From contig CAVRKE010000002.1 in NCBI GenBank assembly GCA_963722305.1, positions 315,878 through 379,877 on the forward strand: DNA of 64,000 nt, read 5' to 3'. Of this stretch, positions 39,140 to 64,000 are shown in pieces (the first letter of the stretch is position 1; every line of letters starts with the position of its first letter). The stretch comes from Candidatus Levyibacteriota bacterium. GTDB lineage: Bacteria; Patescibacteriota; Microgenomatia; Levybacterales; UBA12049. A program made the translations under genes and the position numbers. The notes below the pieces were generated by a model, which saw nothing but the letters and a program-made list of their open reading frames with translations, searched no databases and was not told the DNA's origin.

Positions 39140-39149
39140 GGCTAGTAAA

Positions 39150-43681: not shown

Positions 43682-43686
43682 TATTT

Positions 43687-45441: not shown

Positions 45442-45527
45442 TTAAATAATTTATGCATCACCGGAGTAATGATATTGCAATGATAGATTGTTTAAACTAA
45501 TATTTATACGCCCGGTGCCTTTTACAT

Positions 45528-47537: not shown

Positions 47538-47585
47538 ACTTTTGTCAGACTTGCAAATTAAATCTACTCAGACTAATATTTATCC

Positions 47586-49352
47586 ATGAACGAAGAGAAA
47601 GAATTAACTTTTAAAAGTCTTTTTCTTCCCTTTACCAGCAAAAAAGCGGTTATTCTTATTGTCTTAATCGGACTGCTTATTTTCTCTAATGGCCTCTTTA
47701 ATAATTTCGTCAGGGACGACGTTTCACAAATATTATCAAATCCAAATATTCAATCGCTTAAAAACGTTCCCGGCTTATTTTTAGGAAATAGATTGGTATC
47801 GGAAAAAAATACCTTGCTTGGAGGAACTTACTTCAAACCGCTGCTGGATACAACCTTTTCTTTAACCTATGCCCTATTCGGCGCAAACCCTTTTCCTTTT
47901 CATTTTTTTCAGATAAGCTTATACATTGTTAATGCTTGCATCCTGTTTGTTTTATTAAAGCAATTTTTTAAGCAATCCCTTGCCTTTATTCTGTCTTTGG
48001 CTTTTTTGCTCCATCCGATAAATAGCGAAGTTGCATTATACATTTCGGCAACTCAGGAAGTTTTATTTTTATTCTTTGGATTATTATCTTTACTGGTATT
48101 AAAAAAAACTGAATCGCTAAAAGGAATTTTATTAACAGGTTTACTTCTATTTTTTTCTTTACTTTCAAAAGAAACCGGGATTCTGTTTATTTTTATCGCT
48201 TTAGTTTATTCGGTTATTTATAAAAGAAAAGTATTTTATCCTTTGTTGGCGTTTTCCTCTTTATCAACAGTCATCTACCTTCTTTTACGCATTCAGGCAA
48301 TTGGAATATTTACCAATCTGTCTAATTTCCCCTTCGGAAGACTTGATTTAATGACACGGCTAATAAATATACCGGAAATTATTTTATTCTATCTTAAATC
48401 TTTCTTTTTTCCTTTTTACTTTTCAACTTCATATAATTGGTTTTATACTAAAATTAACTTCAGTCATTTTTTAATTCCGCTGCTAATTGATATTGTATTT
48501 TTTTCTTTGATTTTAACTAGTACCGTTTTTATTTTTAGGAAATCTTCCCGAAAATTTTTCCTGCTGTTTGTTTTTTTTGTAGTCTGGTTTTTATCCGGAA
48601 TGCTATTCCATTTACAAATTATTCCTCTTGACCAGACTGTTGCCCCAAGGTGGTTTTATTTCCCAATGATTGGACTATTTGGAATGATTGGAGTTTTACT
48701 GGAAATTTTTCGAATTAACTTTAACAACAAATGGATTATCTTTATTGTTGCGTTAATACTAGTAACTCTTTCTCTAAAAACTTCTTCACACAGTTTTGAG
48801 TTTCGTGATGATGTGACCTTGACCAATCTCGATTTGGCAACTTCCAAATACACAACAGACTACAATATGGAATACCTGATTAGTTATATGTATTATAACC
48901 AAGGACGTTTGGAGGAAGCAAAAATCCATGCACTAAAATCAATAGCGCTTTTCCCTACCATCACTAATAATACAAACTTAGGGACGATCTATAGCCGTTT
49001 GGGAAATTACGAAATGGCAAAAGCTTCATATCTTCAGGCCTTGCAATACGGAATCGATAGGCTTCCTTACGAAAATTTAGCCTACCTTACCATTTTATCC
49101 GTCAAACCGGAGGACGAAAATTTTATCAAAAACGTTTCTCTTAAAAAATACCCCGATGACGGGGTGCTTTGGTTTAATCTGGCAATTGTGCAATATAAAT
49201 TAGGGGAAGCAAGTGATGCAAAAGCGTCTATTCAGAAAGCGGAAATGTATTACGAAAATCCTAATCTTAATTTTGTTGATTACATAATTACAAATCATAA
49301 GCAGCTCAATATAAAGGCTAAAAACGGTAATGTTACTTTCTATACATATTAA
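47586..49352 (+). CDS. GT-C + TPR membrane glycosyltransferase, paralog 3
   Basis: LTFKSLFLPFTSKKAV, NFVRDDVSQI, TPR C-terminus. Confidence 0.7.
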   Translation: MNEEKELTFKSLFLPFTSKKAVILIVLIGLLIFSNGLFNNFVRDDVSQILSNPNIQSLKNVPGLFLGNRLVSEKNTLLGGTYFKPLLDTTFSLTYALFGANPFPFHFFQISLYIVNACILFVLLKQFFKQSLAFILSLAFLLHPINSEVALYISATQEVLFLFFGLLSLLVLKKTESLKGILLTGLLLFFSLLSKETGILFIFIALVYSVIYKRKVFYPLLAFSSLSTVIYLLLRIQAIGIFTNLSNFPFGRLDLMTRLINIPEIILFYLKSFFFPFYFSTSYNWFYTKINFSHFLIPLLIDIVFFSLILTSTVFIFRKSSRKFFLLFVFFVVWFLSGMLFHLQIIPLDQTVAPRWFYFPMIGLFGMIGVLLEIFRINFNNKWIIFIVALILVTLSLKTSSHSFEFRDDVTLTNLDLATSKYTTDYNMEYLISYMYYNQGRLEEAKIHALKSIALFPTITNNTNLGTIYSRLGNYEMAKASYLQALQYGIDRLPYENLAYLTILSVKPEDENFIKNVSLKKYPDDGVLWFNLAIVQYKLGEASDAKASIQKAEMYYENPNLNFVDYIITNHKQLNIKAKNGNVTFYTY

Positions 49353-49386
49353 TATTTTGAATTAGTTTGTATACTTAACTTGGAAA

Positions 49387-51168
49387 ATGAATTTATTTAA
49401 AAATATTCTTCAGCGCAAAAGGCCAATTCTTAAGATAATAATTAGTTATTCACCTTATCTTCTGCTTCTATTCTTTGCCTTCTCCTTCTTTTTTAGAAGT
49501 GACGTTTCCTTTGACCAGGACCTTGGCAGACACTTAAAACTGGGACAAATTATCGTACAAACATTACAAGTTCCCAAAATTAACCTATTTTCTTATACAA
49601 ATCCCGGCTTTCCTTTTATTAACCACCATTGGCTGTTTGAAGTAATTGCTTACTTGGGAAACATCACTATCGGCGTGCAGGCTTTACTGATAATTAAGCT
49701 AATTATTTTGTTGTGCGTAACTTTTGTAAGTTTGGTTCTCGCCAGAAGAACAAAGTCGGCTTTATTTATTCCAATTTCGTTCTTATTCCTTCATCTCTTA
49801 AGAGAAAGAACCGATCTTAGACCGGAAATTTTCAGTTTTCTTTTTACAGTTATAACTTTTTACATCTTGGATAAATTCGAAAAAAGTGAATCAAAATTAA
49901 TTTATCTTTTACCCCTAATTTCACTGATATGGGTCAACACTCATATTTATTTCCCCGTGGGAATTTTTTTACAATTAATTTTTTTAGCCAGCTTCTTGTT
50001 CCAGCGGTTTTTCCAAAAAAACTCTAAACCGGAAACTTTAAGAAAGATTAAAACATTGGGGGCAATTACCGGAGCTTCAATTGTAGTGTCTTTATTGAAC
50101 CCGAATTTTCTAACCGGTGCTTTATACCCGTTTACCGTTTTTAACAACTACGGCGTGGCTATAACCGAAAATCAAACTGTTTTTACGCTTATAAATATCG
50201 GCTTCCCCGACCAAAATTTTTTGTTTTATTATATTGCCGGTTTTATTGTTTTGGCTTCTATTTATTTTAGTTTATGGCGAAAACCAAATTTTAAGAATAT
50301 TTTGCTTTCTCTTTTGGGACTTGGGCTTGCTAGCCAAAGTATCAGGGGCTTCCCTTACCTTGTTTTTATATCCCTGCCGGCAGTCTTGCAAAATTTTAGC
50401 TATCAAAAATCTAATTTTGCCACAAAAATTCTGAACTTGATAGTAGTTATTTTAATTTGCGTTGAAGCTATCTTTTACTTTAATGGAAATTATCACTTTC
50501 TAACTTATCTTCCCAATAAAGCTTCCTTAACTTTTGACCAGGATGCAAAACCGGCCCTGGATTTTCTTTTGAAAAACAATCTACCGCAACCTATTTTTAA
50601 CAATTTTGACATCGGCAGCTACATTATTTACCGCGCATATCCAAAATACAAAGTTTTTATTGACGGTAGGCCCGAAGCGTATCGGGCCAGTTTTTTTCAG
50701 AAAATTTATCTCCCCATGCAAGAAAACTATCAATTATTTAAAAAGGAAGATAAGAACTATAACTTTAAAACGGTCATTTTTTCAATTACCGACCAAAACC
50801 CAAGAACTATTAACTTTTTGAATTTGATTACAAAAGACCCTGCATGGAAAACTGTCTTTTTAGATCAGTTTATGATTATCTTGGTAAGAAACGGCTTCGA
50901 AAATAATCTAAAAACAATTGACTTGAACGCACTTAATCCCAACAATTACAATTATAAGGATTGTGTAGCTTATACAAACTTAAGTGCTTTTCTTTGCAAC
51001 ACCCAACATTTGAATCGCGGCGAGGCGTTTGATGAAAAAGCTCTCAAGCTTTGTCCCAATAATCCGGCCGCCAATGATATTATGGCCAATATCTTAGCCC
51101 GTGAAGGTAAAAGTCAGAATCTTGTCTCACAATACAGTGCAAAAGCTAAAAACTGGGTTTTCTGGTAA
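49387..51168 (+). CDS. Polytopic GT-C-like membrane protein + C-terminal TPR-like region (third subfamily; FDQDLGRHLKLG loop motif)
   Basis: 593 aa, ~12 TM, acidic loop-1 motif, TPR-like tail (...ALKLCPNNPAANDIMANILAREG). Confidence 0.55.
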   Translation: MNLFKNILQRKRPILKIIISYSPYLLLLFFAFSFFFRSDVSFDQDLGRHLKLGQIIVQTLQVPKINLFSYTNPGFPFINHHWLFEVIAYLGNITIGVQALLIIKLIILLCVTFVSLVLARRTKSALFIPISFLFLHLLRERTDLRPEIFSFLFTVITFYILDKFEKSESKLIYLLPLISLIWVNTHIYFPVGIFLQLIFLASFLFQRFFQKNSKPETLRKIKTLGAITGASIVVSLLNPNFLTGALYPFTVFNNYGVAITENQTVFTLINIGFPDQNFLFYYIAGFIVLASIYFSLWRKPNFKNILLSLLGLGLASQSIRGFPYLVFISLPAVLQNFSYQKSNFATKILNLIVVILICVEAIFYFNGNYHFLTYLPNKASLTFDQDAKPALDFLLKNNLPQPIFNNFDIGSYIIYRAYPKYKVFIDGRPEAYRASFFQKIYLPMQENYQLFKKEDKNYNFKTVIFSITDQNPRTINFLNLITKDPAWKTVFLDQFMIILVRNGFENNLKTIDLNALNPNNYNYKDCVAYTNLSAFLCNTQHLNRGEAFDEKALKLCPNNPAANDIMANILAREGKSQNLVSQYSAKAKNWVFW

Positions 51169-51183
51169 GAGCATTAAAAGGAT

Positions 51184-52926
51184 ATGAAAAATGAAGAACA
51201 ACCGCTGACTTTTAAAAGTCTTTTTGTCCCTTTTACCAATAAAAAGGCAGTTACTCTGATGATAATTATTGGCTTAATTGTTTTTTCAAACGGACTGCTT
51301 AACGGTTTCGTCGGCGATGACCAGGGGCAAATTATCGACAATTCATTTGTCCACTCAATCGGCAATATCCCTATTTTTTTCCAAAGCAGCACCTTTTTTA
51401 ACGGCAACTACCACCTGCTTATCGGCAATTATTTTCGGCCGCTAATGCTTACCTATTTCTCTATCCTTTATCATTTTTTTGGGGCTAACCCTTTTTTCTT
51501 CCATTTTGCGCAAGCTTTTCTTCATCTTGCGAACGCCATTTTAGTATTCTTATTTTTGAGATATTTTCTGAAAACTCTACCGGCGTTAATTTTGTCTTTA
51601 ATTTTTCTTGTCCATCCGATAAATAGTGAAGTTGTCTATTATATTTCCGATTCCCAAGAAATTTTATTTTTCTTATTTGGCATGCTTTCCTTACTCACGT
51701 TTTTGAAAATAAATTCCAAAAGATATCTTTTCCTACCGGCTATATTTCTATTTCTCTCATTGGTTTCAAAAGAAAGCGGAATATTGTTTTTCCTGTTAAT
51801 AATAATTTACGCTTTGCTATTTAAACGAAAACATTTATTGAATATTTTGATTTATTGCTGTTTATCGGTTTTGCTTTTTTTAATATTACGGGTTCATGCT
51901 GTTGGGTTGTTTTCTACTCCGTCAAATTCTTCAATTGCCGGATTTTCTCTTTTAATCCGGATGCTGAATATTCCGGCGATGTTTTTCTATTACCTTAAAA
52001 CTTTTCTTTTTCCGCTTGAACTCGCCTCGAATTATCAATGGGTTGTTACAAACTTTAATTTAAATAACTTTTTTATTCCGCTGATTATTGATTTACTTTT
52101 TATTAGTTTAATTTTGGCTCCAATATTTATTTTATTTAAAAAGCATTCCAAGTTTTTAATTTCGTACATATTTTTTACTTTTTGGTTTTTACTTGGCATG
52201 GCTATTCATATGCAAGTCATTCCTTTGGATGCCACTGTTGCCGAGGGCTGGTTTTATTTTCCGATAGTCGGATTCTTAGGGATGATTGGTATAAGTTTTG
52301 CCGCAGCGAAAATTAAATTTAATCAGAACTTAATTATTGCGGTAGTTTTAATATTGATATTAGTCTTGTCGGCAAGGACAATCGTTCGTAGTTTTAATTG
52401 GAGAGACGCATTTACATTAACCTCGCATGATACCAAAATATCAAAAGACTCCTGGGCACTGGAAAATGCTTTAAGCTATGCCTACTTTGAAAAGGGTTTG
52501 TACGAAGATGCAAAAATCCAGGCAGAAAAGTCAATTAAGCTTCACCCGTACTCGACGAATTTCTTAAATCTTGGATCGGCCGAAGCGTATCTTGGAGATT
52601 ATAAAGAAGCAAAGCGAGCGTTTTTAAACTCAATTAAATACGGAGACTACTACCAGACATATGATAATCTTAGTTTTTTAGGCTTACTTTATGGAGATCC
52701 TAAAGAAGACGTAAGTTTTATCCAAGATAAAGCGCTTAAGAAATTCCCCAATGATCCAAAGCTTTGGACTTATCTTTCTATACTTGAGTATAATTTCGGT
52801 GATAAAAATAGGGCAAAAAATGATATTCAGAATGGCTATATCTTAGACCCGGAGGGACAAACTGCGGCCGTTTATAACGCGATCATGAATAATAAACCTG
52901 TGACCGTAAATAATAAACTGCAATAA
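51184..52926 (+). CDS. GT-C + TPR membrane glycosyltransferase, paralog 4
   Basis: LTFKSLFVPFTNKKAV, GFVGDDQGQI, TPR C-terminus. Confidence 0.7.
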   Translation: MKNEEQPLTFKSLFVPFTNKKAVTLMIIIGLIVFSNGLLNGFVGDDQGQIIDNSFVHSIGNIPIFFQSSTFFNGNYHLLIGNYFRPLMLTYFSILYHFFGANPFFFHFAQAFLHLANAILVFLFLRYFLKTLPALILSLIFLVHPINSEVVYYISDSQEILFFLFGMLSLLTFLKINSKRYLFLPAIFLFLSLVSKESGILFFLLIIIYALLFKRKHLLNILIYCCLSVLLFLILRVHAVGLFSTPSNSSIAGFSLLIRMLNIPAMFFYYLKTFLFPLELASNYQWVVTNFNLNNFFIPLIIDLLFISLILAPIFILFKKHSKFLISYIFFTFWFLLGMAIHMQVIPLDATVAEGWFYFPIVGFLGMIGISFAAAKIKFNQNLIIAVVLILILVLSARTIVRSFNWRDAFTLTSHDTKISKDSWALENALSYAYFEKGLYEDAKIQAEKSIKLHPYSTNFLNLGSAEAYLGDYKEAKRAFLNSIKYGDYYQTYDNLSFLGLLYGDPKEDVSFIQDKALKKFPNDPKLWTYLSILEYNFGDKNRAKNDIQNGYILDPEGQTAAVYNAIMNNKPVTVNNKLQ

Positions 52927-52973
52927 AATTAAATGATATTGTAAGTTAATTTTCCCAATGTTAATATTGGTTC

Positions 52974-54704
52974 ATGCAAGAACAACCGCTGACTTTTAAA
53001 AACCTATTTCTCCCTTTTACTACCAAAAAAGCAGTTGCGTTTATTATAATTATCGGCCTGGTTGTCTTTTTTAACGGGCTTTTTAACGGTTTTGTGGGCG
53101 ATGACAAACCATTAATTAGCAGTAACGTTGCCATCCAAAGCTTACAAAACTTACCGCAATTTTTTACCAATAGCGAAAGTGGCCATGTTTTGGAAAGGTT
53201 TTCGTACAGGCCTTTAACAACGACTATTTTTTCCGTTCTGTATTTATTATTTGGCCCAAGCTCTTTTGCCTACCATTTTTTCTTAATTATCTTTTACATC
53301 ATTAATGCCTGCCTGGTATTTTTATTCTTAAAGCAATTTTTCCAAAAACCGCTGGCTTTTGTCTTGTCTCTTGCTTTTTTGCTTCATCCGATAAATAGCG
53401 AAGTTGCTTTATACATCGCCGATATTCAAGAAGTATTCTTCCTCTTTTTTGGCATGCTGGCGCTGGTAACCCTTAGTAATTTTAAGTCCTACAAAAGTAT
53501 TGTTTTGGTAAACGTCTTGTTATTTTTATCTCTCCTGGCAAAAGAAACCGGCATTCTTTTCTATTTGGTGTCCCTGCTTTATATCTTTATCTATCAACGA
53601 AAAACTTTTTATCGCTTATTTATAAGTTTTGTATTCTCGTCCGTTGCTTATTTGGCACTGCGCTTATTTGCCCTTGGAGTTACATCCGATGCAAATGTGC
53701 TTGCTCCAATTCATGACTTAAACTTACCGGCACGTTTAATGAACATACCGGCAATTATCTTTTTTTATCTTAAGACTTTTGTTTTTCCGCTTGATTTAGC
53801 AATGTCTTATCACTGGGTTGTAACGAAAATAAATTTTAGCGGGTTTTTTCTGCCGCTAATTTTAGATCTGCTATTTTTCTCTGCCTTAATGGGTTTTGCT
53901 TTTCTAATTTACAAAAAATTCTCCCGTAAGCACCTGGCGCTTTATCTATTTTTTACTGTCTGGTTTTTAGCAGGAATTTTAATGCACTTACAAATCATTC
54001 CGCTTGACCTGACCGTTTCCGACCGCTGGTTCTATTTCCCGATTATCGGTTTACTGGGAATAATTGGAGTATTGCTGACGGTCTATAAAATAAATTTAGG
54101 TAGCAAAGCAGTAATTATAATAATCGTAGGCCTTTTACTACTCTTGTCATTAAGAACTTTCATTCGCAGTTTTGACTGGCGAGATAATTTTACTCTGGCA
54201 ACGCATGATTTGAGAATCTCAAAACAGGCTTACAATTTGGAACTCATCTTAAGCGGTGAGTATTATAACCAGAAAAATTTTAAATTTGCCGCTGTGCACG
54301 CTCAAAATTCAATTGCTTTATATCCTAATCCGGTAAGTTATACCGTTTTGGGATTAGTATACTATAATCTGGGTAATTATAAACAGTCTCGGCAATCGTT
54401 TCTGAAGGCTTTGCGCTATGCGGATTTCGAAGTTGTCTACACCAATCTAGCCATCATCAGCTTGTCGTATGGAGACAAAAATAAGAGCATCAGTTTTATT
54501 AAAAATGTGGCCCTTAAAAAATACCCCGAAAATGCCGAACTTTGGCTTTGTTTAGCCTGGCTGGAATATAACAACAATGATAAAGATAATGCCAAAAAAG
54601 CGATTACGCGAGCTTACCAATTGGATAAAAACCAACAAACTTCCACTATCTATCACGTAATTATGAATAATTTACCGCTCAAAAATAATACTACCAAGCT
54701 CTAA
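52974..54704 (+). CDS. GT-C + TPR membrane glycosyltransferase, paralog 5
   Basis: LTFKNLFLPFTTKKAV, GFVGDDKPLI, TPR C-terminus. Confidence 0.7.
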   Translation: MQEQPLTFKNLFLPFTTKKAVAFIIIIGLVVFFNGLFNGFVGDDKPLISSNVAIQSLQNLPQFFTNSESGHVLERFSYRPLTTTIFSVLYLLFGPSSFAYHFFLIIFYIINACLVFLFLKQFFQKPLAFVLSLAFLLHPINSEVALYIADIQEVFFLFFGMLALVTLSNFKSYKSIVLVNVLLFLSLLAKETGILFYLVSLLYIFIYQRKTFYRLFISFVFSSVAYLALRLFALGVTSDANVLAPIHDLNLPARLMNIPAIIFFYLKTFVFPLDLAMSYHWVVTKINFSGFFLPLILDLLFFSALMGFAFLIYKKFSRKHLALYLFFTVWFLAGILMHLQIIPLDLTVSDRWFYFPIIGLLGIIGVLLTVYKINLGSKAVIIIIVGLLLLLSLRTFIRSFDWRDNFTLATHDLRISKQAYNLELILSGEYYNQKNFKFAAVHAQNSIALYPNPVSYTVLGLVYYNLGNYKQSRQSFLKALRYADFEVVYTNLAIISLSYGDKNKSISFIKNVALKKYPENAELWLCLAWLEYNNNDKDNAKKAITRAYQLDKNQQTSTIYHVIMNNLPLKNNTTKL

Positions 54705-55424: not shown

Positions 55425-55970
55425 TTGGAAGAGCTAGATTTGTCGGATTTTTTTCATACAAAGGCAGAGGCAAATGATTTTTCAATTCACCTTTCGCAAA
55501 TTTCAGAAAGCATATATAAAACCGGTTTTAATCTGGAAAAAGAACTCACCGAGCATTTTGGTGTCGAAAAAAAGGATAAATTCATTTCGCTTCTAAGAAA
55601 TAATAAGGTTAATATCTATTCAAGCCCCGACTTAAAAACCTTTCTTGATAAAATTCAAGCAATAATTGCCAACCTTCCGCTGCTTTCTCTGGTGATTGCT
55701 TTTGAGCCAAACGAAGAAACACTAAAGTCTCTTTCCGAATGGCTTTTTTTAAATACGCACAAAGAGGTTTTGCTCGATATTACTGTTGACAGCAAAATCA
55801 TTGGCGGTGCAACCATTAGTTTTAACGGTAAATACACTGACTGTTCGATTAAAACTAAATTTGACCAGATTTTTCAAGATGTTTGGGCCAATAAACCGAC
55901 GACATCTGAAAAGATTGTTCTTCCCCATGGAGACCATCAAAGTGTTGAACATATTGTGGTTAGTAGATAA
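55425..55970 (+). CDS. atpH: F-type ATP synthase subunit delta (OSCP)
   Basis: 181 aa. C-terminal ...VDSKIIGGATISFNGKYTDCSIKTKFDQ matches the OSCP C-domain. Synteny supports the call. Confidence 0.7.
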   Translation: MEELDLSDFFHTKAEANDFSIHLSQISESIYKTGFNLEKELTEHFGVEKKDKFISLLRNNKVNIYSSPDLKTFLDKIQAIIANLPLLSLVIAFEPNEETLKSLSEWLFLNTHKEVLLDITVDSKIIGGATISFNGKYTDCSIKTKFDQIFQDVWANKPTTSEKIVLPHGDHQSVEHIVVSR

Positions 55971-55986
55971 AGCATAAATCGAAGAT

Positions 55987-57456
55987 ATGGATACAGAATT
56001 TAACCAATCATTGAAAAAGACAGGAGAATACGGAATTGTTTATCAAGTCAGCCACCCGATTGTTTTTATTGAAGGCTTACCGTTAGTCAGAGCCCATGAA
56101 GTAATTGAGTTTGAAAGTGGACAAAAGGGCGAAGTTTTTACTATTGACCACGGCAACGTGGAAGCAAGAGTTTTTTCCCATGAACCGATTAAAGTCGGAA
56201 CAAAAGTGACCAGAACAGACAGGTTATTGTCAATCCCGGTCGGAAAGGAACTTCTAGGACACGCCATTAATCCTCTGGGAGAGCCTTTGGACCAAAACGT
56301 AAAAATTACTCCGCCAAAAGAATTCCGTGAACTGGAATCAAACCCGATAGGTATTTCCGGCAGGAAAAAAATTACCGTCCAGCTAACAACCGGAATTTCT
56401 TTAGTAGACTTACTCCTGCCTTTAGGTAGAGGACAAAGAGAGTTGATTATCGGAGACCGTAAAACTGGAAAAACTTCTTTTTTAATGACCACCATTAAAA
56501 AACAGGCTTATGAAGGAGTAGTTTGTATTTATGTCGCCATCGCCAAGAAAAAAAGCGATATTAAAAAACTGCAGGAATTTTTTGTGCAGGAAAAAATTAT
56601 GGATAAGGTAATCATTGTCGCAACCAGTTCTTATGACTCGCCAACGCTTATTTACCAGACCCCTTACGCCGCCATGACTATTGCCGAATATTTTCGCGAC
56701 CAGGGAATACATACCTTGCTTATTCTTGATGATCTGTCGACTCACGCCAAGTTCTATCGTGAATTGTCCCTTTTAGCCAGACGTTTTCCCGGCCGTGATT
56801 CATACCCCGGTGATATCTTTTTCGTCCACTCAAGCCTTCTGGAAAGAGCCGGGAACTTTAAACACCCGACGGCCGGGGAAGTTTCAATCACTTGCCTACC
56901 GGTAATTGAAATTATCGAAGGAGATTTTACCGGTTACATCTCAACTAATGTCATGGGAATTACCGACGGCCACATTTATCTTGACAGCAATATTTACTAT
57001 CAGGGCATGCGACCGGCCATCAATATCCCCTTATCTGTTACCCGTGTCGGCAGACAAACTTTAAGTCAACTGTCGCGCGAAATTAATAAAAACCTGACCA
57101 CGTTTTTGTCTTCATACGATAAGCTGCAAAACCTGTCTCATTTTGGTCAAGAACTAACCGATGACGTTAAAAATACTCTCAGGCTTGGACAACTAATTTA
57201 TAATTTTTTTAACCAACCTTACCAAATGGTTGTCCCAAAAATTGTCCAAATGATTATTTTGTCAATGATTTTGCAAAACATCGTCACCGATAAAGACGTT
57301 CTTAAAACGATTCAAACCGGCTTAATTGCCGCCTTTTACGACCGTGGAAAACAAAAATTGCTTTATGATATTGTTAATACCAACGATTTAAAAATTTTTA
57401 ACCAAAACGTCTTAAATAATAAAGACAAATTATTTGATTTGGCAAAGACAAAATAA
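55987..57456 (+). CDS. atpA: F-type ATP synthase subunit alpha
   Basis: GDRKTGKTSF (Walker A of alpha), RLLSIPVGKELLGHAINPLGEPLD, DDLSTHA. Slightly short at 489 aa. Confidence 0.93.
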   Translation: MDTEFNQSLKKTGEYGIVYQVSHPIVFIEGLPLVRAHEVIEFESGQKGEVFTIDHGNVEARVFSHEPIKVGTKVTRTDRLLSIPVGKELLGHAINPLGEPLDQNVKITPPKEFRELESNPIGISGRKKITVQLTTGISLVDLLLPLGRGQRELIIGDRKTGKTSFLMTTIKKQAYEGVVCIYVAIAKKKSDIKKLQEFFVQEKIMDKVIIVATSSYDSPTLIYQTPYAAMTIAEYFRDQGIHTLLILDDLSTHAKFYRELSLLARRFPGRDSYPGDIFFVHSSLLERAGNFKHPTAGEVSITCLPVIEIIEGDFTGYISTNVMGITDGHIYLDSNIYYQGMRPAINIPLSVTRVGRQTLSQLSREINKNLTTFLSSYDKLQNLSHFGQELTDDVKNTLRLGQLIYNFFNQPYQMVVPKIVQMIILSMILQNIVTDKDVLKTIQTGLIAAFYDRGKQKLLYDIVNTNDLKIFNQNVLNNKDKLFDLAKTK

Positions 57457-57459
57457 GTT

Positions 57460-58347
57460 ATGGCGCAAAAAAAACTAATCGTTGAAGAGCTGGAAGCCTT
57501 AAACAGTTTAAAAGACCTGGCGGAAAGTTATGAAGAAATAGCAGCTATCGAAATGCAAAAAATTAGAGACTCGGTTTTGAAAACCCGCGAGTTTTTGATA
57601 GATATTTCCGATGTTTTTGTTGACCTAAAAGCCTCTTACACCAGAGAGGTGAATGATTTAATTGCCCGACGGAAAAAGGGGGACAAAAGCATATTACCGA
57701 TCCTGCAAAAAATCAATAAAGTATTAATGGTTTATTTATCGTCAAACGGAAAGCTCTATGGACCAGTTACCCAGAAAACTTTTAGGCTTTTTAGCGAAAG
57801 CCTTAAAAAAACAGACCCAAGTAGCACCGACCTTGTGATTATCGGCAATGCCGGTAAGGAATTGTATGAAAATGCAATGATTCAGAGAAAGTTTGAATAT
57901 TTTGAAATTCCCGATACCAAAGTTAATATTCAACACATCAAGAAACTGATGCAAAAATTTTTACAGTACGAAAAAGTTTATGTTTATTATGGAAAGTTTG
58001 GGAATCTGGTTACGCAATCTCCAATATTCACCAGTATTACCGGCGAGGATATTTTTGAAACCGAAAAGGTGACCCCGGTTCCCCGTGAAGATCGCTTTAT
58101 TTTTGAGCCCACCCTTGAGAAAATTTTTCATTTTTTTGAAACACAAATTATGACAAACTTATTCAGTCAAACACTGCTGGAGAACCAACTGGCCCGTGAT
58201 GTCTCCAGGGTAAACGCCATGGAAGAAGCCTTGTTAAACATCGAGGAAGAATCAAAAAAATTAAACCGAATTAGTCTTCGTTTAAAACACGCGCTGTCCA
58301 ATAAAAAACAGCTGGAAACTATTTCGGGGTTGTTGTTGTGGACATAA
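57460..58347 (+). CDS. atpG: F-type ATP synthase subunit gamma
   Basis: 295 aa. N-terminal ...LKDL..SYEEIAAIEMQKIRD and C-terminal coiled coil (RISLRLKHALSNKKQLETISGLLL). Synteny supports the call. Confidence 0.8.
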   Translation: MAQKKLIVEELEALNSLKDLAESYEEIAAIEMQKIRDSVLKTREFLIDISDVFVDLKASYTREVNDLIARRKKGDKSILPILQKINKVLMVYLSSNGKLYGPVTQKTFRLFSESLKKTDPSSTDLVIIGNAGKELYENAMIQRKFEYFEIPDTKVNIQHIKKLMQKFLQYEKVYVYYGKFGNLVTQSPIFTSITGEDIFETEKVTPVPREDRFIFEPTLEKIFHFFETQIMTNLFSQTLLENQLARDVSRVNAMEEALLNIEEESKKLNRISLRLKHALSNKKQLETISGLLLWT

Positions 58348-58427
58348 GGTGTAAAAAATTAATGAATATTTATATTATTCAAGAATTACAATTTAGTATA
58401 CAAATAAATATAAATTTATTTACATAA

Positions 58428-59924
<1,497 letters not shown>

Positions 59925-59926
59925 AA

Positions 59927-60202
59927 ATGGCAAATAAAAAAACAATCAACGTTACAATCCGCGATACAGAAAATATTATTTTTACCGGCGACGTTGACAG
60001 AATAAGTTCATATAATGAAGTTGGAAAATTTGATATATATCCAATGCACGCCAATTTCATTTCCATCATTAGACAGGAAATAGAACTTTTTAAAGACAAA
60101 CAACTAATTAAAAAAATTGACATTGAGCAAGCTGTCTTAAAAGTCAAACAAGATGTCGCTCACATTTTCCTGGGAATTGAAACACTTTTTATAGAAGAGT
60201 AA
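59927..60202 (+). CDS. atpC: F-type ATP synthase subunit epsilon
   Basis: 91 aa. INVTIRDTENIIFTGDVDRISSYNEVGKFDIYPMHANFISII is a typical epsilon beta-sandwich N-domain. Confidence 0.75.
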   Translation: MANKKTINVTIRDTENIIFTGDVDRISSYNEVGKFDIYPMHANFISIIRQEIELFKDKQLIKKIDIEQAVLKVKQDVAHIFLGIETLFIEE

Positions 60203-60535
60203 TTTCTAATATCTCCGGATAATATTTTTTCACAAAAATCGTTGAAAAACTCAATTTTATGCTATATATAATAGATTGTTAAATCAATATATTCAATTGC
60301 TTATATACATTAATTATGTTCGAAATATATATAATATACCTATAGGACAGCCTATACATATTCACCTAACATGTATCTCTTCAACTACTTTTGACCCATT
60401 TTGACCTATTGACTACTATTATAAAAAGACCTACAGTAAATATAGGCTGAAAAATTTTAATATTTTCACAAATTTATTCTGGCGCATGGTTTAGAAGAAT
60501 TTCGGCCAAAAATTTATATTTTCTAATAAAAATTA

Positions 60536-61915
60536 ATGGACTCGACTCGCCCAGTTGGATTAGAACAATTATTAACTTTACAGCAAGCTGCTCAAAAGTT
60601 AGCGGTTTCTATTGACGTCCTTCTGAAGTGGAATGAGTTCAACATCCTTAAACCCACTATCACCCAAACCGGAGAAATCGGATACACGCAGCAACAAATT
60701 GACCAATTCTTGGCAATTCGTCAGGCAACGCGAGCTGTTACCAAACTAGAACAAATTCCTGTCACAAAACCCGAATCTGGCATAACCATAAATAATCATT
60801 TCCAAAAAGACTATAATAACTTTCATCCAAAATTGGAGTCTCCGGATTTTCATAGAGCCAGAAACAGTTACTTCTCTATCGGTCCCATCTTTGCTGTTTT
60901 AGCTTTAGGCGTAACGTTAGTGGTAATATTTATGACCCAACCGATAAACATTAAGCTTTTATTTGATGAGGCAAATAGTATGCGGGTGGCTTTAGCATCA
61001 CAAATAAGCCAGTTCAATCTGTCGGGATCCCAAAACTCTCCATTACCAATTCAACTCAAAAATATTATCGCTTCCGGAAATGGGCTTAACAATGAAGGAG
61101 CAACTATTTTAGGCGATAAGCTTACTACGTTTAACACCCCTTTAGGAAAAAAGTCCGGGAAAAACACCGCCGCCCGCAACCAAACAGCAGCTGAAGCGGT
61201 TCTCGGCAGTAGCGCAAATGCTAACAACTCAACCTACAGTGAAACCCAAAATTTTGCCTCGAATGAGAATACGACCAGTAACTTTATCTTTGATAGCAGA
61301 GGCAACATTAAGGGAGAAGCCACCAGCGCCAATCTTTTGGCTTCGGCTATCGGCACTGCCGGACTCGCAGAAAATGACAACTCACCGCAACAAACCACAA
61401 ACCCGAATATTTTATTACTCTTTTTAAGCGTGGGCCTCGTATTTGTGCTTTTCGCTTTCCGAAAGCAACTGGCTTATTCCACCGTAAAAGATTTAGATAC
61501 AGGCGTCGCAGGCTCTCCCAATTTTACCGGCAATGTTGAAAAACAGAAAATTCTTGAAATTGACCAAAAAACCGACGGAACTGTTGTTTTGTATTTCCAA
61601 GGACAGGAATATAAAGTTAGTAAACCCGAGTTAGATAGCGAGTCCGACCAGTTTATCGAAAGACTAATGGGGCTTATTTCACCCGGCGTTAAGGAAATCT
61701 ATTATGACACTTCCAGTGATGAAAAAATTAGATTAAGTGCTCCCCTTAGCAAACTGGTCACACGGCTGGGATTTGTAGGCATAAAAAGAGACTTGTTCTT
61801 TCCGAGAACTTCCAAAAACCGGGTTCTTTTTAGAAGGTACCTGACAGAGCAAGACCTAACTGCGATGAATTTGACCACCGAGCAAATTTTAAACGATTTC
61901 AGACTGAGTAATTGA
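60536..61915 (+). CDS. Membrane protein with N-terminal excisionase/MerR-like HTH (HTH_17-like), two TM helices flanking an Asn/Ser/Thr-rich extracytoplasmic segment, and a C-terminal cytoplasmic domain
   Basis: N-terminus LEQLLTLQQAAQKLAVSIDVLLKWNEFNILKPTITQTGEIGYTQQQIDQFL fits the HTH_17 pattern (LLT..EAA..LGVS..TL.RW...G.L....IG....Y....I..FL). TM1 YFSIGPIFAVLALGVTLVVIF, TM2 ILLLFLSVGLVFVLFAF. Confidence 0.55.
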   Translation: MDSTRPVGLEQLLTLQQAAQKLAVSIDVLLKWNEFNILKPTITQTGEIGYTQQQIDQFLAIRQATRAVTKLEQIPVTKPESGITINNHFQKDYNNFHPKLESPDFHRARNSYFSIGPIFAVLALGVTLVVIFMTQPINIKLLFDEANSMRVALASQISQFNLSGSQNSPLPIQLKNIIASGNGLNNEGATILGDKLTTFNTPLGKKSGKNTAARNQTAAEAVLGSSANANNSTYSETQNFASNENTTSNFIFDSRGNIKGEATSANLLASAIGTAGLAENDNSPQQTTNPNILLLFLSVGLVFVLFAFRKQLAYSTVKDLDTGVAGSPNFTGNVEKQKILEIDQKTDGTVVLYFQGQEYKVSKPELDSESDQFIERLMGLISPGVKEIYYDTSSDEKIRLSAPLSKLVTRLGFVGIKRDLFFPRTSKNRVLFRRYLTEQDLTAMNLTTEQILNDFRLSN

Positions 61916-62031
61916 GGCTAAGCCTCCAGGTCCACACAGGTCCACTTGAGCTCATTCATATCTCACGCCTGTCCCCTTTCTTACGGCCAGCTTAATCTAA
62001 ATATAATAGTAGAATTTATTTCTCTAAGAAG

Positions 62032-64000
62032 ATGGATTCAGCTCGCCAAGTTGACTCAAAAAAATTATTAAACCTACAGCAGGCCGCCGAGAAATTGGGG
62101 CTGTCTGTTGACGCTTTAATTGACTTAAGCGAGAATAATATTTTAGTGCCAACGGTTGGCAAAAATGGCCTCATTTCCTACTCTGAAGAACAAATTGAAA
62201 GATACTTTCACCCGGAGGCTTTTATTGAGGAAGTAAAACCCGCAATTGAAGTAAAACCCGCAATTGAAGTAAAAAAAGTTGAACAACCAATAGAAGAAGC
62301 ACTTCAGGAACAAGCTAGGCGAGCTGAATCCGAAGTGAAGTTAATTGTTTCTGCCCCTGTGGCAGAAAAGGCACCCATCCCTTCCGGTCCAACGAGCGAG
62401 TCGGTATTCGACAAACTTGTGCGTTGGGCCGGAAATGGGTTTTATCGGGACGAATTTGCCAAGGAATATACAAAAGCCTCAACCGAACCGAATCTAAACC
62501 TTAATTTCAGCTTCAAACTGCCGCCGATTAACTTTAGGCCAACCAGAAGGCAAGTCGCATTTTCTTTAGCTATGTTTCTCATCTTAGTGGTTTTAGGCGT
62601 CTTTACGCAACAAGAGAGGATTGCCTTCTTCCTGGAAAAATCACAAAACCAAACGCCCAGCTTTGCTACGCAAACAAATCAGGCGGTTTTAGGTGCCCAA
62701 ACCAGTAAGATGAAAATAATCGGAAATATTATCTTAGCCCTACCTTTGGTTGCCAAGGAAAATGCCTCCTTAAACCAGAACCTGGAGGTTGGAGGCACCA
62801 GCATCTTTAAGGGAAACATCACCGCCCCAAATATTTTATACGGTATTAAGGCCGGAGACCATATTGTCATCACCAATGCGGCCAGCCAGACGCCGACCAT
62901 TTCGGCCGATTTATCAGGCACAGTTTCTTCTTTCCAAGGCCAAACCGGCGATGTAACTTTAGTAGCCGGAAGTGACATTTCGATCAGTGGAACGACCATT
63001 AGCAATGTCTCCACCTTAGGCACGGTTGTCTCCCGCGGCGGCTGTGATTCCTGCATTACCGACGCCGATGTCTCCAATAGTTTAACCATTGATGCAACCG
63101 GCAATGTTGCCGGTGAGGCAATTACAAGCGGTGTCATTTCTCCGACTGTCGGAGGCACCGGCTTAACCAGTTATAATCCCGGCGACATGCTTTATGCCTC
63201 CACCACCAACACCTTAACTACCTTATCTGCCAGCGATACCGGACAATTCTTAATGATGGGCATGAATAGCGCTCCGGAATGGCAATATGTTGGCTCGTTT
63301 GCCGTGGCAGTAGTTAAAGAAGATAACGTCGTAATCTCGCCGGTGACCAATGTTTTAAATTTCTCCAGCGGAGACTTTGTTCCGGTCGTTTCACCGGTTG
63401 GCCAGGTTAACTTTACGCTCGCTCCAACCTTAACTTCGGTAGTCGGCGTTGCCAATAACTTTAATGTCGGCGGCACCAATTTGACCTTTAGTAATGCGGG
63501 AACGATTACCTCAAGCGGCGCAAATTCTCTGACGATTGACTCCGGAACAACCGGCAGCGTGAATATCGGCACCGGCGACAATTCTAAAACCATTAATATC
63601 GGTACCGGCTCCGGCGGGGACAATATCAATATAGCAACTAATGGTACAAACCCTAACACGATTACGCTTGGCGCCACTACCGACAGCACCACGATTAGCG
63701 GCAATATCGCTCTCTCTACTGCCGCCGGCGCTACCACTACTATTGGCAACTCAACCGGAAATTTACAAATCAACTCAACCGGTTTGCAGGTTGCCAGCAG
63801 TGGCGCCATTACCATTCCCGCAAGCCAGACTTTAACCGTTGGGACTATTGGGCTTAATGCCAGTGGCAGCAGCAATCTTACTTCCGGGGCAAACCTGGTT
63901 GGAGTCTATAATCAGTTCAATAACTCCAGCTCAAACGATTTACAACAGGTCTTGAAAGACTTTGACGCGGCTATCACTTCCGCCGGCATCACTCCGTTCT
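62032..64000 (+). CDS. Paralogous membrane protein: N-terminal HTH_17-like domain, EVKPAI tandem repeat, one TM, then a long Gly/Thr/Ser/Asn-rich beta-helix-like repeat domain. 3'-partial (runs off the window) and absent from the supplied ORF track
   Basis: I translated codon by codon from the ATG at 62032 and found no stop through 64000 (656 codons). The N-terminus MDSARQVDSKKLLNLQQAAEKLGLSVDALIDLSENNILVPTVGKNGLISYSEEQIERYF is homologous to the 60536 protein. TM VAFSLAMFLILVVLGVF. Repeats such as TIDSGTTGSVNIGTGDNSKTINIGTGSGGDNINIATNG. Confidence 0.65.
   Translation, partial: MDSARQVDSKKLLNLQQAAEKLGLSVDALIDLSENNILVPTVGKNGLISYSEEQIERYFHPEAFIEEVKPAIEVKPAIEVKKVEQPIEEALQEQARRAESEVKLIVSAPVAEKAPIPSGPTSESVFDKLVRWAGNGFYRDEFAKEYTKASTEPNLNLNFSFKLPPINFRPTRRQVAFSLAMFLILVVLGVFTQQERIAFFLEKSQNQTPSFATQTNQAVLGAQTSKMKIIGNIILALPLVAKENASLNQNLEVGGTSIFKGNITAPNILYGIKAGDHIVITNAASQTPTISADLSGTVSSFQGQTGDVTLVAGSDISISGTTISNVSTLGTVVSRGGCDSCITDADVSNSLTIDATGNVAGEAITSGVISPTVGGTGLTSYNPGDMLYASTTNTLTTLSASDTGQFLMMGMNSAPEWQYVGSFAVAVVKEDNVVISPVTNVLNFSSGDFVPVVSPVGQVNFTLAPTLTSVVGVANNFNVGGTNLTFSNAGTITSSGANSLTIDSGTTGSVNIGTGDNSKTINIGTGSGGDNINIATNGTNPNTITLGATTDSTTISGNIALSTAAGATTTIGNSTGNLQINSTGLQVASSGAITIPASQTLTVGTIGLNASGSSNLTSGANLVGVYNQFNNSSSNDLQQVLKDFDAAITSAGITPF
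62230..62274 (+). repeat. Tandem 18-nt repeat (gaagtaaaacccgcaatt x2 + partial) encoding EVKPAI EVKPAI EVK
   Basis: Seen in sequence. Confidence 0.85.

What the first reader, a model, noticed from the sequence alone, without database searches (positions are those of the whole stretch)
60536..64000. Pair of paralogous membrane proteins with an N-terminal excisionase/MerR-type HTH fused to TM segments and large extracytoplasmic repeat domains
Both proteins begin with a ~60-aa segment that fits the HTH_17/excisionase DNA-binding pattern (LL.LQQAA.KL.[VL]S.D.L.......NIL.PT....G.I.Y...QI..F). After ~110-180 residues each has a hydrophobic TM helix and a long extracytoplasmic region. The first is Asn/Ser/Thr low-complexity. 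The second has Gly/Thr-rich beta-helix-like repeats reminiscent of tail-fibre or adhesin repeats. A cytoplasmic DNA-binding head tethered to the membrane with an extracellular sensor or adhesin domain resembles one-component ToxR/CadC-type signalling, but with an unrelated HTH and a much larger ectodomain. The DNA here is also GC-richer than the window average.
Basis: partly seen in the sequence, partly recalled or inferred. Interest (0 to 1): 0.6.

Follow-up and report, generated by a model that had tools for sequence, protein, structure and literature searches.

The report
Membrane-anchored HTH pair with DNA repeats
Two neighbouring genes of an uncultured Patescibacteria (Microgenomates-type) genome encode membrane proteins with the same cytoplasmic helix-turn-helix head and membrane anchor, one small with an unknown conserved tail domain and one a giant surface fibre; a strictly conserved 41-bp array of 10-bp DNA repeats lies between them, which points to an undescribed membrane-bound control unit for a giant surface protein.

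Summary
P1 (60536-61915, 459 aa) and P2 (62032 to beyond the window, over 2,500 aa in relatives) share a MerR-type winged-HTH head. They also share the TM anchor and a ~40-aa module just outside the membrane. P1 does not carry a large ectodomain. C-dom has no Pfam, PDB-sequence or Foldseek match and carries a basic patch. Its remote relatives are soluble proteins in mobile-element-like loci. A gapless 41-bp element (61926-61966) made of four 10-bp direct-repeat units follows the stop codon of every P1-type gene examined (25 loci). The order atp operon, P1, element, P2 recurs across Microgenomates. The HTH heads are acidic and lack the residues that BldC and MerR proteins use to contact DNA, so a "DNA-binding head" is doubtful. 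My best model (confidence about 0.4) is that P1 is a membrane-embedded regulator whose C-dom reads the repeat array to control the giant fibre gene, and that the shared head is a protein-coupling module. It resembles ToxR/CadC in logic only. No description was found in the literature searches run here.

The parts
60409..60437 (+). Sigma70-type promoter of P1 (TTGACT, 17 nt spacer, TACAGT)
   Evidence: Consensus scan. The same TTGACT(A/G)... 17 nt ... TACAGT/TAATAT arrangement recurs upstream of P1 homologues in most loci.
60536..61915 (+). P1: 459-aa two-pass membrane protein. Order: head, linker, TM1, loop, TM2, C-dom.
   Evidence: ORF. At least 185 full-length homologues were found; all that carry a credible organism label are Patescibacteria. 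Alignment A1.
60563..60730 (+). P1 N-dom: MerR-type winged HTH (residues ~10-65), acidic, predicted cytoplasmic
   Evidence: Pfam MerR_1 22.2 bits. PDB profile hits CvkR, MtaN and EcmrR. Net charge.
60878..60934 (+). P1 TM1 (residues 115-133)
   Evidence: Hydropathy scan. K+R in the 15 flanking residues is 2.76 before and 1.45 after.
60986..61099 (+). P1 extracytoplasmic juxtamembrane module (VALASQISQFNLSG...LPIQLK...GLNNEG, residues 151-188), shared with P2
   Evidence: hhalign of P1-family against P2-family segments: probability 97%, E = 1.1e-10.
61403..61459 (+). P1 TM2 (residues 290-308)
   Evidence: 114 of 120 family members have two TM segments. K+R is 1.10 before and 2.68 after.
61541..61885 (+). 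P1 C-dom (residues ~336-450): orphan, highly conserved cytoplasmic domain with a basic patch (residues 400-436, net +6 to +8)
   Evidence: Invariant columns. AF2 pLDDT 84, pTM 0.76. No match in Pfam, PDB sequences, Foldseek PDB or BFVD. 110 close and about 100 remote clusters.
61926..61966 (+). Conserved 41-bp element: four 10-bp direct-repeat units, CCAGGTCCACA / CAGGTCCACT / TGAGCTCATT / CATATCTCAC
   Evidence: Gapless in 21 distinct sequences from 25 loci. Information is 1.29 bits per column against 0.35-0.48 in the flanks. Unique in the window. No RNA structure or Rfam hit.
61993..61998 (+). Possible -10 box of P2 (TAATCT), 26-32 nt after the element in six loci inspected by eye
   Evidence: Semi-conserved GCTTAAT(C/T)TA motif seen by eye in the rows printed. 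Weak inference.
62032..64000 (+). P2 (5' part): type-II anchored giant surface protein. Relatives exceed 2,600 aa.
62056..62211 (+). P2 N-dom: MerR-type winged HTH (residues ~9-60), net charge about -4
   Evidence: 47% identical to the P1 head. HTH_17 E = 0.046. AF2 topology b-a-a-b-b-a.
62551..62607 (+). P2 TM anchor (residues 174-192)
   Evidence: Hydropathy. AF2 helix 172-206.
62686..62793 (+). P2 juxtamembrane module (VLGAQTSKMKIIGNIILALPLVAKENASLNQNLEVG, residues 219-254)
   Evidence: Near-invariant columns in A7. hhalign against the P1 family.
62794..64000 (+). P2 Thr/Ser/Gly/Asn-rich ectodomain, including a GGTGLTSYNPGDMLY...GQFL...PEW module
   Evidence: Composition. Module shared with Peptidase_S74-bearing proteins. 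Structure not predictable.

Best explanation
The locus is a lineage-wide (Microgenomates) three-part module: P1, a 41-bp direct-repeat DNA array, and P2.

P2 is a giant, probably glycosylated surface fibre or adhesin. It is held in the membrane by an N-terminal anchor cassette made of a cytoplasmic winged-HTH-fold head, a TM helix and a juxtamembrane module.

P1 is a short paralogue of that cassette. In place of the fibre it has a variable loop, a second TM helix and a cytoplasmic, basic, orphan domain (C-dom).

Proposed mechanism (inferred): C-dom is the nucleic-acid-binding part. It occupies the four 10-bp repeats, which lie on one face of the helix just upstream of the P2 promoter, and so sets transcription of the giant gene from the membrane. 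The extracytoplasmic loop and shared anchor let P1 sense or associate with P2. The acidic, DNA-contact-deficient HTH heads act as protein-protein modules, for example by binding C-dom or each other to give feedback, and not as DNA readers.

Shown: the architecture, topology signals, paralogy, conservation of the element and its fixed link to C-dom genes, and the synteny.

Inferred: DNA binding by C-dom, regulation of P2, and the role of the heads.
For: 1. The element always follows a C-dom gene. This holds in the window, L018, 14 genome loci, 8 metagenome loci and also L016. In L016 the C-dom gene has a different sensor-like N-terminus, no HTH, no atp operon upstream and no adjacent P2.
2. Among 120 pattern matches in metagenomes, only the 8 next to C-dom genes fit the motif at the unconstrained positions. 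They score 10.5 to 28.9; the other matches that could be scored reach -3.7 at most, with a median near -22.
3. The element has a fixed length, a 10-bp period and no RNA fold or covariation. This pattern fits a protein-bound DNA array.
4. C-dom is the most conserved part of P1 and has a +6 to +8 patch. The model is confident.
5. Remote C-dom relatives are C-terminal domains of soluble proteins. Four were looked up; they head small-gene clusters (three followed directly by a DUF5659 gene), two lie beside restriction-modification genes and one cluster carries primase and resolvase genes. Among the 40 remote relatives scanned against Pfam, one is fused to a reverse transcriptase and one carries AbiJ_NTD3. 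This position is typical of element regulators.
6. The heads lack the BldC/MerR contact residues and are acidic.
7. P1 has its own sigma70-type promoter, whereas P2 has none of good consensus.
8. The paralogy covers head, TM and juxtamembrane module.
9. The pair is conserved downstream of atpC in 15 of 16 genome loci and in all 6 metagenome loci with enough upstream sequence.
Against: - No known DNA-binding fold was detected in C-dom. Foldseek against the PDB gave a best E of 0.23, BFVD gave 0.036, and hhalign against OmpR/ToxR gave 0.3%.
- No direct evidence links C-dom to the element beyond adjacency. Adjacency could simply reflect a P2 promoter kept next to P1.
- No comparable repeat arrays were seen next to the remote C-dom homologues.
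- The 10-bp direct-repeat arrangement is exactly what BldC-type MerR-like heads bind. Related CPR giant proteins with canonical basic heads have CTTGGACA repeats upstream that share a GTCCA core with this element. This keeps the heads in play as the binder.
- Whole genomes could not be scanned, so a wider regulon or a dedicated sigma factor is not excluded.
Confidence: 0.4

Rival explanations
1. The HTH heads themselves bind DNA. P1 and P2 would be membrane-tethered BldC/Xis-like winged-HTH proteins that line up head-to-tail on the four 10-bp direct repeats. This would tether the locus to the membrane and autoregulate it, in the manner of ToxR/CadC logic.
For: - BldC is a MerR-like head without a coiled coil. 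It binds arrays of a variable number (two or four in the two sites described) of 9-10-bp direct repeats head-to-tail (PMC5859096).
- The heads here also lack a coiled coil.
- The element has four 10-bp units.
- CPR relatives P0132 and P0136 keep canonical basic heads (TLRRW..GNQRRY, net +7 and +11) on the same head-TM-giant-ectodomain plan. They have CTTGGACA repeats just upstream.
Against: - The heads of P1 and P2 are net acidic.
- At BldC's essential positions they carry D, a variable residue, E, I/V and G. In BldC, R30A and H46E each abolish binding.
- The L016 gene keeps the element but has no HTH head.
Confidence: 0.2
2. This is a structural or export model. The head-TM-juxtamembrane cassette would be an anchoring, oligomerisation or export-targeting device for surface proteins. 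P1 would be an assembly or anchoring partner of the P2 fibre, with C-dom binding a cytoplasmic protein or lipid. The 41-bp element would simply be the P2 promoter, read by RNA polymerase with some unlinked factor.
For: - The anchor cassette is shared.
- The heads are DNA-contact deficient.
- HTH domains used as protein-binding modules are known; RodZ binding MreB is an example (own knowledge).
- Seven tandem PMT_2/TMEM260-like O-mannosyltransferase genes lie nearby, which suggests an envelope-biogenesis neighbourhood.
- The link to the atp operon is stable and unexplained.
Against: - The element stays with the C-dom gene when P2 is absent (L016).
- The element is not seen elsewhere in about 300 kb of related sequence.
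- C-dom relatives occur in soluble proteins of mobile-element-like loci and not in envelope loci.
Confidence: 0.25
3. The element would act at the RNA level, as a 3' UTR or leader motif of a P1-P2 transcript. Examples would be a binding site for an RNA-binding protein or a processing signal.
For: It starts 1-20 nt after the P1 stop codon in most loci, and it contains repeated A/CAGG(A/U)C motifs.
Against: There is no consensus structure (-1.24 kcal/mol) and no covariation. There is no Rfam hit at E <= 1. A strict 10-nt period without indels is more typical of DNA-face recognition. The distance to the P2 start codon varies from 27 to 99 nt.
Confidence: 0.07
4. The pair would be a domesticated prophage remnant, combining an excisionase-like HTH with a tail-fibre gene.
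For: The HTH_17 family includes excisionases. P2 shares a repeat module with Peptidase_S74-bearing proteins. C-dom relatives lie in mobile contexts.
Against: The chromosomal position after atpC is stable across class-level divergence. There are no PHROGs hits and no other phage genes nearby. Both proteins are integral membrane proteins.
Confidence: 0.03

Closest known systems
ToxR / CadC / TcpP membrane-bound one-component transcription activators
   Same: They have a cytoplasmic nucleic-acid-binding-type domain, a TM segment and an extracytoplasmic part. ToxR-type sites are direct repeats near a promoter. The logic is membrane-localised gene control.
   Different: ToxR-type proteins use an N-terminal OmpR-type winged helix (Pfam Trans_reg_C) and a single TM helix. 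Here the head is MerR-type and probably does not bind DNA. The candidate DNA reader is an orphan C-terminal domain placed after a second TM helix. Trans_reg_C was not detected, and hhalign of the C-dom against OmpR/PhoB/ToxR/CadC gave 0.3%.
BldC / lambda Xis family (stand-alone MerR-like winged HTH binding direct repeats head-to-tail)
   Same: The head has the MerR-like b-a-a-b-b-a fold without a coiled-coil or effector domain. The nearby DNA array has four 10-bp direct repeats, like the four-repeat BldC site at smeA.
   Different: The BldC contact residues are not conserved and the heads are acidic. The heads are fused to membrane anchors. BldC repeats are AT-rich (AATTxxxxC), whereas these are CAGGTC-type.
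Classical MerR-family regulators (nearest solved relatives: CvkR/Alr3614 7xn2, MtaN, EcmrR)
   Same: The first HTH plus wing is sequence-similar (MerR_1 above the cut-off; PDB profile E = 2.6e-4).
   Different: There is no dimerisation coiled coil and no effector domain. No palindromic operator in a long-spacer promoter is present. The proteins are membrane-embedded. The PGAP name 'MerR family transcriptional regulator' given to relatives rests on the head alone.
RodZ (HTH, TM, periplasmic domain; the HTH binds MreB, not DNA)
   Same: It is a bitopic membrane protein whose cytoplasmic HTH fold serves protein binding. This is a precedent for the role proposed here for the heads.
   Different: RodZ has an XRE-type HTH and a DUF4115 periplasmic domain. 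There is no sequence relation (no Pfam hit). The comparison rests on my own knowledge.
Giant Gram-positive-type surface adhesins and phage tail-fibre-like proteins with Peptidase_S74
   Same: P2 has a Thr/Ser/Gly-rich, very long extracellular repeat region. It shares a ~55-aa GGT.LTSY..GD.LY...GQ.L...P.W module.
   Different: P2 is anchored by an N-terminal signal-anchor preceded by a folded cytoplasmic domain. It has no cleaved signal peptide and no visible C-terminal sorting motif. The C-terminus was not seen, and there is no PHROGs or Pfam match for the ectodomain.

Membership tests
MerR family transcription regulators | N-terminal winged HTH matching the MerR or MerR_1 profiles | tested here: met
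   P1 scores 22.2 bits on MerR_1 against a cut-off of 21.6. P2 relatives score 23-31 bits. P2 itself gives only HTH_17 at E = 0.046. The PDB profile finds CvkR, MtaN and EcmrR.
MerR family transcription regulators | C-terminal coiled-coil dimerisation helix and effector-binding domain | tested here: not met
   The head is followed by a variable linker and a TM helix.
MerR family transcription regulators | Basic DNA-contact residues in the recognition helix and wing | tested here: not met
   Net charge is -1.4 (P1 family) and -1 to -5 in most P2-family heads (+1 in P0131). The positions equivalent to R and RR are a variable residue and I/V-G.
BldC/Xis-type direct-repeat binders | Stand-alone MerR-like winged HTH, about 70 aa | tested here: not met
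   The fold is shared, but the domain is fused to membrane proteins of 459 and more than 2,500 aa.
BldC/Xis-type direct-repeat binders | Contact residues K26, R30, H46, R47 and R48 (PMC5859096) | tested here: not met
   The aligned residues are D27, K31 (variable across the family), E47, I48 and G49.
BldC/Xis-type direct-repeat binders | Target DNA made of tandem 9-10-bp direct repeats | tested here: inconclusive
   A four-unit 10-bp array lies beside the genes, but no binding was tested and the repeat sequence differs.
ToxR/CadC-type membrane one-component regulators | OmpR-type winged helix (Trans_reg_C) | tested here: not met
   There is no Pfam hit at E <= 10. Foldseek found no winged-helix hit.
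ToxR/CadC-type membrane one-component regulators | Topology: N-in, single TM, periplasmic sensor domain | tested here: inconclusive
   P2 fits the topology. P1 has two TM helices with both ends inside. The evidence is hydropathy and the positive-inside rule only.
ToxR/CadC-type membrane one-component regulators | Sequence-specific promoter binding and activation | not testable with these tools
   This needs EMSA, footprinting or reporter assays.
Phage tail fibre / Peptidase_S74 proteins | C-terminal intramolecular chaperone domain (PF13884) or a PHROGs tail-fibre family | tested here: not met
   There are no Pfam or PHROGs hits in 953 aa of P2 or 1,649 aa of P0121. The true C-terminus was not available.
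RodZ | XRE-type HTH plus a DUF4115 periplasmic domain | tested here: not met
   Neither domain appears in the Pfam scans.

The most novel reading that the evidence does not exclude
Microgenomates would carry a previously undescribed membrane-integrated gene-control device. A two-pass protein would use an orphan-fold cytoplasmic domain to read a four-unit 10-bp repeat array and switch a giant (over 2,500 aa) surface fibre gene. A degenerate MerR-type HTH would have been recycled as a shared cytoplasmic coupling head on both regulator and fibre. This would give direct feedback between the amount or state of fibre in the envelope and its own transcription. The system may also be linked physically or functionally to the adjacent ATP synthase locus.
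Probability: 0.25. Interest if true: 0.75.

Novelty: new variant of a known kind. Interest (0 to 1): 0.6.

Why it matters
Patescibacteria are ultrasmall bacteria, many of which live attached to other cells. How they build and control their cell surface is largely unknown. This module combines one of their largest surface proteins with a conserved partner and a conserved DNA element. It is present across a whole class-level lineage.

It offers three things:
- a testable handle on the regulation of a candidate host-attachment fibre;
- a new protein domain family (C-dom) with a confident model but no known fold relative, which also occurs in mobile elements of CPR bacteria;
- a clear case in which the automatic label "MerR family transcriptional regulator" is probably misleading, because the HTH has lost the residues that bind DNA.

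The 41-bp element and the two small domains are short enough for direct in-vitro tests without cultivating the organism.

Tried and rejected
1. C-dom as an OmpR/ToxR-type winged helix. This was my first guess from the sequence pattern. It was rejected because there is no Trans_reg_C hit, no Foldseek hit and hhalign gives 0.3%.
2. GACC/TTGAC repeats upstream of P1 (60388-60420) as a second operator in opposite orientation. This was rejected. Only the TTGACT -35 box and the -10 box are conserved in other loci; the extra copies are lineage-specific.
3. The element as a structured RNA. There is no fold and no covariation, and no Rfam match.
4. Terminator after P1. The small hairpin GAGGC-TAA-GCCTC is not conserved.
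5. P2 ectodomain fold. The AF2 model is too poor (pLDDT 42), so no fold search was run on it.
6. PHROGs for P1 and P2: nothing. NCBIfam: nothing useful.
8. Concerted evolution of the two heads. Within-genome identity (0.46) is about the same as cross-genome identity (0.45), so there is no signal.
9. Repeat arrays next to remote C-dom homologues: none seen. A CAGGAC palindrome in L019 is just a terminator.
10. Metagenome pattern scan for extra copies of the element.
11. Literature searches for a description of this architecture in CPR bacteria found nothing relevant.

Full report
**What is at the coordinates**

Two + strand genes lie downstream of an F1Fo ATP synthase gene cluster (atpH, A, G, D and C at 55425-60202).
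- P1 is 60536-61915 (459 aa).
- P2 starts at 62032 and leaves the window after 656 codons.
- A Logan contig extends P2 to 953 aa without reaching its end.
- In the closest relative (86% and 83% identity) the gene is at least 2,585 aa if a frame break is bridged.
- Other relatives give open frames of more than 2,600 aa.
- GC content is 41.7% in P1 and 49.1% in the P2 ectodomain, against 38.6% for the window.

**The shared head**

The first 59 residues of the two proteins are 47% identical (E = 2e-14) and BLAST aligns nothing else between them.

The fold assignment rests on four results:
- P1 matches Pfam MerR_1 just above the curated cut-off (22.2 against 21.6 bits). P2 matches HTH_17 weakly.
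- P2 relatives score 23-31 bits on MerR_1.
- A profile of 34 heads finds the MerR-type repressor CvkR/Alr3614 (7xn2, E = 2.6e-4), then MtaN and EcmrR. Hits to designed repeat proteins are spurious.
- AF2 gives the P2 head the MerR topology strand-helix-helix-strand-strand-helix, with block-mean pLDDT of 64-79 over residues 11-60.

The HTH-fold claim therefore holds. DNA binding is another matter:
- The head is net acidic. The mean is -1.4 (range -4 to +1) over 118 P1-family members and -1 to -5 in most P2-family heads (+1 in one, P0131).
- In BldC, K26 and R30 read bases, T27, T29 and K33 contact phosphates, and H46, R47 and R48 fill the minor groove. R30A and H46E each abolish binding (PMC5859096).
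- Two distant CPR proteins built on the same plan (P0132, P0136) keep the canonical TLRRW...GNQRRY sequence, with net charges of +7 and +11.

I conclude that the P1/P2 heads are degenerate HTH folds that probably no longer bind DNA in the known way.

- Hydropathy finds two TM helices (115-133 and 290-308) in 114 of 120 family members.
- K+R counts are 2.76, 1.45, 1.10 and 2.68 for the stretches before TM1, after TM1, before TM2 and after TM2. This places both termini in the cytoplasm.
- The 156-aa loop between the helices is Asn/Ala/Ser/Thr-rich and variable. Its length ranges from 78 to 188 aa.
- The last ~115 residues ("C-dom") are the best-conserved part of the protein: QKTDGTVV..F.G.EYK.SKPELDSESDQFIERLM...KEI.YD....APLSKLVTRLGFVGIKRDLFFPRTSKNRVLFRRY.T..DL.
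- Residues 400-436 carry a net charge of +6 to +8.

**What C-dom is**
- An AF2 model built on 39 sequences is confident (pLDDT 84, pTM 0.76). Its topology is three strands, a helix, a strand, two helices, a hairpin and two helices.
- It has no Pfam match and no PDB sequence match by profile.
- My initial idea that it is an OmpR/ToxR-type winged helix failed. hhalign against OmpR, PhoB, ToxR and CadC gave a probability of 0.3%.
- A profile search of 1.84 billion representatives found 110 close clusters and about 100 remote relatives. In the close clusters listed, the domain lies at the C-terminus, and full-length members have P1-like lengths. The remote relatives are soluble proteins of 117-709 aa, again with the domain at the C-terminus behind variable N-terminal regions.
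- One remote relative is fused to a reverse transcriptase and one carries AbiJ_NTD3.
- Four remote relatives were looked up. Each sits at the head of a cluster of small genes, which starts with DUF5659 in three of them. Two lie beside restriction-modification genes and one has a Toprim primase and a serine recombinase nearby. The only one with an organism label is from Nealsonbacteria.

This is a position typical of mobile-element regulators. That is only indirect support for nucleic-acid binding.

**Paralogy extends beyond the head**

Both proteins carry a motif of the form VL(G/A)(A/S)Q(T/I)SK.xL.G..I..LP..LK......(K/G)NL..EG about 20-45 residues outside the TM helix. It occupies residues 151-188 in P1 and 219-254 in P2.

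A profile-profile comparison of these segments gives a probability of 97% and E = 1.1e-10. One caveat applies: I chose the P1 rows in which the motif was visible.

P1 is therefore a short paralogue of the P2 anchor cassette (head, TM helix and juxtamembrane module) with a different back end. Within-genome identity between the P1 and P2 heads (0.46) is no higher than cross-genome identity (0.45), so the duplication is old.

**P2**
- Behind the anchor lies a Thr/Ser/Gly/Asn-rich region of thousands of residues.
- It shares a repeated ~55-aa module (GGT.LTSY..GD.LY...GQ.L...P.W) with proteins that carry Peptidase_S74, the tail-fibre chaperone domain.
- It has no Pfam or PHROGs match of its own.
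- AF2 could not model it (pLDDT 42).
- A surface fibre or adhesin is the reasonable reading. A beta-helix fold remains untested.

**The conserved DNA element**

The P1-P2 spacer contains a 41-bp sequence, CCAGGTCCACACAGGTCCACTTGAGCTCATTCATATCTCAC (61926-61966).
- It aligns without a single gap in every locus where DNA downstream of a P1-type gene is available. These are the window, L018, 15 genome loci and 8 metagenome loci, giving 21 distinct sequences.
- The proteins in these loci are only 33-53% identical to P1.
- Information content is 1.29 bits per column against 0.35-0.48 in the flanks.
- It resolves into four 10-bp units: CAGGTCyACA, CAGGTCnnnn, yRRGyynnTT and TRTRYCTCAC.
- It starts 1-20 nt after the P1 stop codon in most loci and ends 27-99 nt before the P2 start codon.
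- It is unique in the 64-kb window and in the other loci held.
The 8 hits that lie next to C-dom genes score 10.5 to 28.9 at the unconstrained positions; the remaining hits that could be scored reach -3.7 at most, with a median near -22.
- There is no RNA structure, no covariation and no Rfam hit.
- Most telling is L016. There the C-dom is attached to a different TM-sensor-TM front end with no HTH. The gene is not next to atp genes, and the downstream genes are nucleases, a helicase, a protease and a recombinase. The element still follows the stop codon.

The element therefore travels with C-dom genes, not with P2 or with the HTH.

A semi-conserved GCTTAAT(C/T)TA motif lies 26-32 nt further on and could be a -10 box. 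That would place the array at roughly -40 to -85. This is my inference by eye.

Against the closest relative, the P1-P2 spacer (94.8% identical) is more conserved than the P1 and P2 coding sequence around it (83-89%), apart from the P2 head (94.7%).

**Synteny**
- In 15 of 16 genome loci (Amesbacteria, Woesebacteria, "Patescibacteria group" and some mislabelled MAGs), P1 follows atpC. In the 14 of these with sequence downstream of P1, P2 comes next.
- The same order holds in all 6 metagenome loci with enough upstream sequence.
- The canonical-head giant proteins P0132 and P0136 also adjoin an atp operon, but at its 5' end and divergently transcribed. They have CTTGGACA repeats just upstream.

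I have no explanation for the link to atp genes.

**How it most likely works**

I favour this model at a confidence of about 0.4:
- P1 is a membrane-embedded regulator.
- Its basic C-dom binds the four-unit array and controls the giant fibre gene.
- The loop and the shared anchor couple P1 to the state of the envelope or of P2.
- The acidic heads serve as protein-protein modules. One possibility is that they bind C-dom, which would let P2 feed back on its own synthesis.

The main rivals are:
- BldC-like binding of the repeats by the heads themselves (0.2). BldC does bind 9-10-bp direct repeats head-to-tail, but the contact residues are missing here and L016 lacks the head.
- A purely structural or export role for the cassette, with the element as a plain promoter (0.25).
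- An RNA-level role for the element (0.07).
- A prophage origin (0.03).

**Comparison with known systems**

The module works like ToxR/CadC only in the broad sense of gene control from the membrane. It fails the defining domain test for that family.

It is a MerR-family member only by its head. It lacks the coiled coil, the effector domain and the contact residues.

RodZ is a precedent for an HTH used as a protein-binding domain on a bitopic membrane protein (own knowledge).

Relatives are auto-annotated "MerR family transcriptional regulator" or "hypothetical protein". I found no paper describing the architecture, the C-dom or the element.

**Verdict**

The pair is a real, conserved and apparently undescribed module. 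Its architecture is well supported. Its mechanism is inferred and can be tested with small recombinant domains and a 116-bp DNA fragment.

Noticed in passing
window 41972-54704: Seven tandem paralogous genes of about 570-670 aa encode PMT_2/TMEM260-like protein O-mannosyltransferase domains plus C-terminal TPR repeats (three of the seven were scanned). They are inserted between the 273-aa gene at 41129-41950 and the atpF-like gene at 54789. In most other loci these two genes are adjacent; L002 has one such paralogue. The Ser/Thr-rich P2 ectodomain and the P1 loop are possible substrates.
   Followed up: partly
L144 4500-5010 and L145 4580-5010 (Amesbacteria GCA_001002525.1, Levybacteria GCA_015661365.1): Giant head-TM-ectodomain proteins with a canonical, basic MerR HTH (P0136, P0132) lie divergently at the 5' end of the ATP synthase operon. 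They share CTTGGACA repeats just upstream, inverted in L144 and as a 12-bp tandem direct repeat in L145. MerR-headed giant surface proteins thus flank atp operons in two configurations.
   Followed up: partly
window 41129-41950: This 273-aa protein is conserved immediately before the atpF-like gene in 14 of 16 genome loci. It has a signal peptide, an extracytoplasmic domain of about 190 aa and two C-terminal TM helices joined by a GRNP loop. To the eye this resembles an ATPase c-subunit hairpin, but it has no ATP-synt_C or ATP-synt_A Pfam hit. No separate a-subunit or c-subunit genes were seen next to the cluster.
   Followed up: partly
L019 6001-6702; L141 4715-5845; L143 5001-6380; L140 5001-7130: Remote soluble relatives of the P1 C-terminal domain head clusters of small genes, which begin with a DUF5659 gene in three of the four loci. 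Two lie next to restriction-modification genes and one has a Toprim primase and a serine recombinase nearby. One is fused to a reverse transcriptase. This looks like an undescribed CPR mobile-element regulator family.
   Followed up: partly
L016 7017-8430: This variant C-dom protein has a TM helix, a ~250-aa sensor-like ectodomain and a second TM helix as its front end, in place of the HTH. It is still followed by the 41-bp element, and then by nuclease, helicase, protease and recombinase genes. It may be an island insertion or an ancestral regulator-operator cassette.
   Followed up: partly
window 37310-41087: Two adjacent GH130 (beta-1,4-mannooligosaccharide phosphorylase) genes lie just upstream of the atp-associated cluster. 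Together with the mannosyltransferase array, this makes a mannose-centred neighbourhood.
   Followed up: no
window 59830-59924 (C-terminus of AtpD): The ATP synthase beta subunit has a low-complexity tail of about 30 aa rich in Pro, Gln and Thr (…[33 protein letters not shown]). Tail length varies between loci, giving proteins of 481-532 aa.
   Followed up: no
L018 14950-14953: In the closest relative the P2 orthologue is split into 1,649-aa and 936-aa ORFs by a frame break. This is probably an assembly error or a frameshift within the repeats. The giant genes often end contigs.
   Followed up: no
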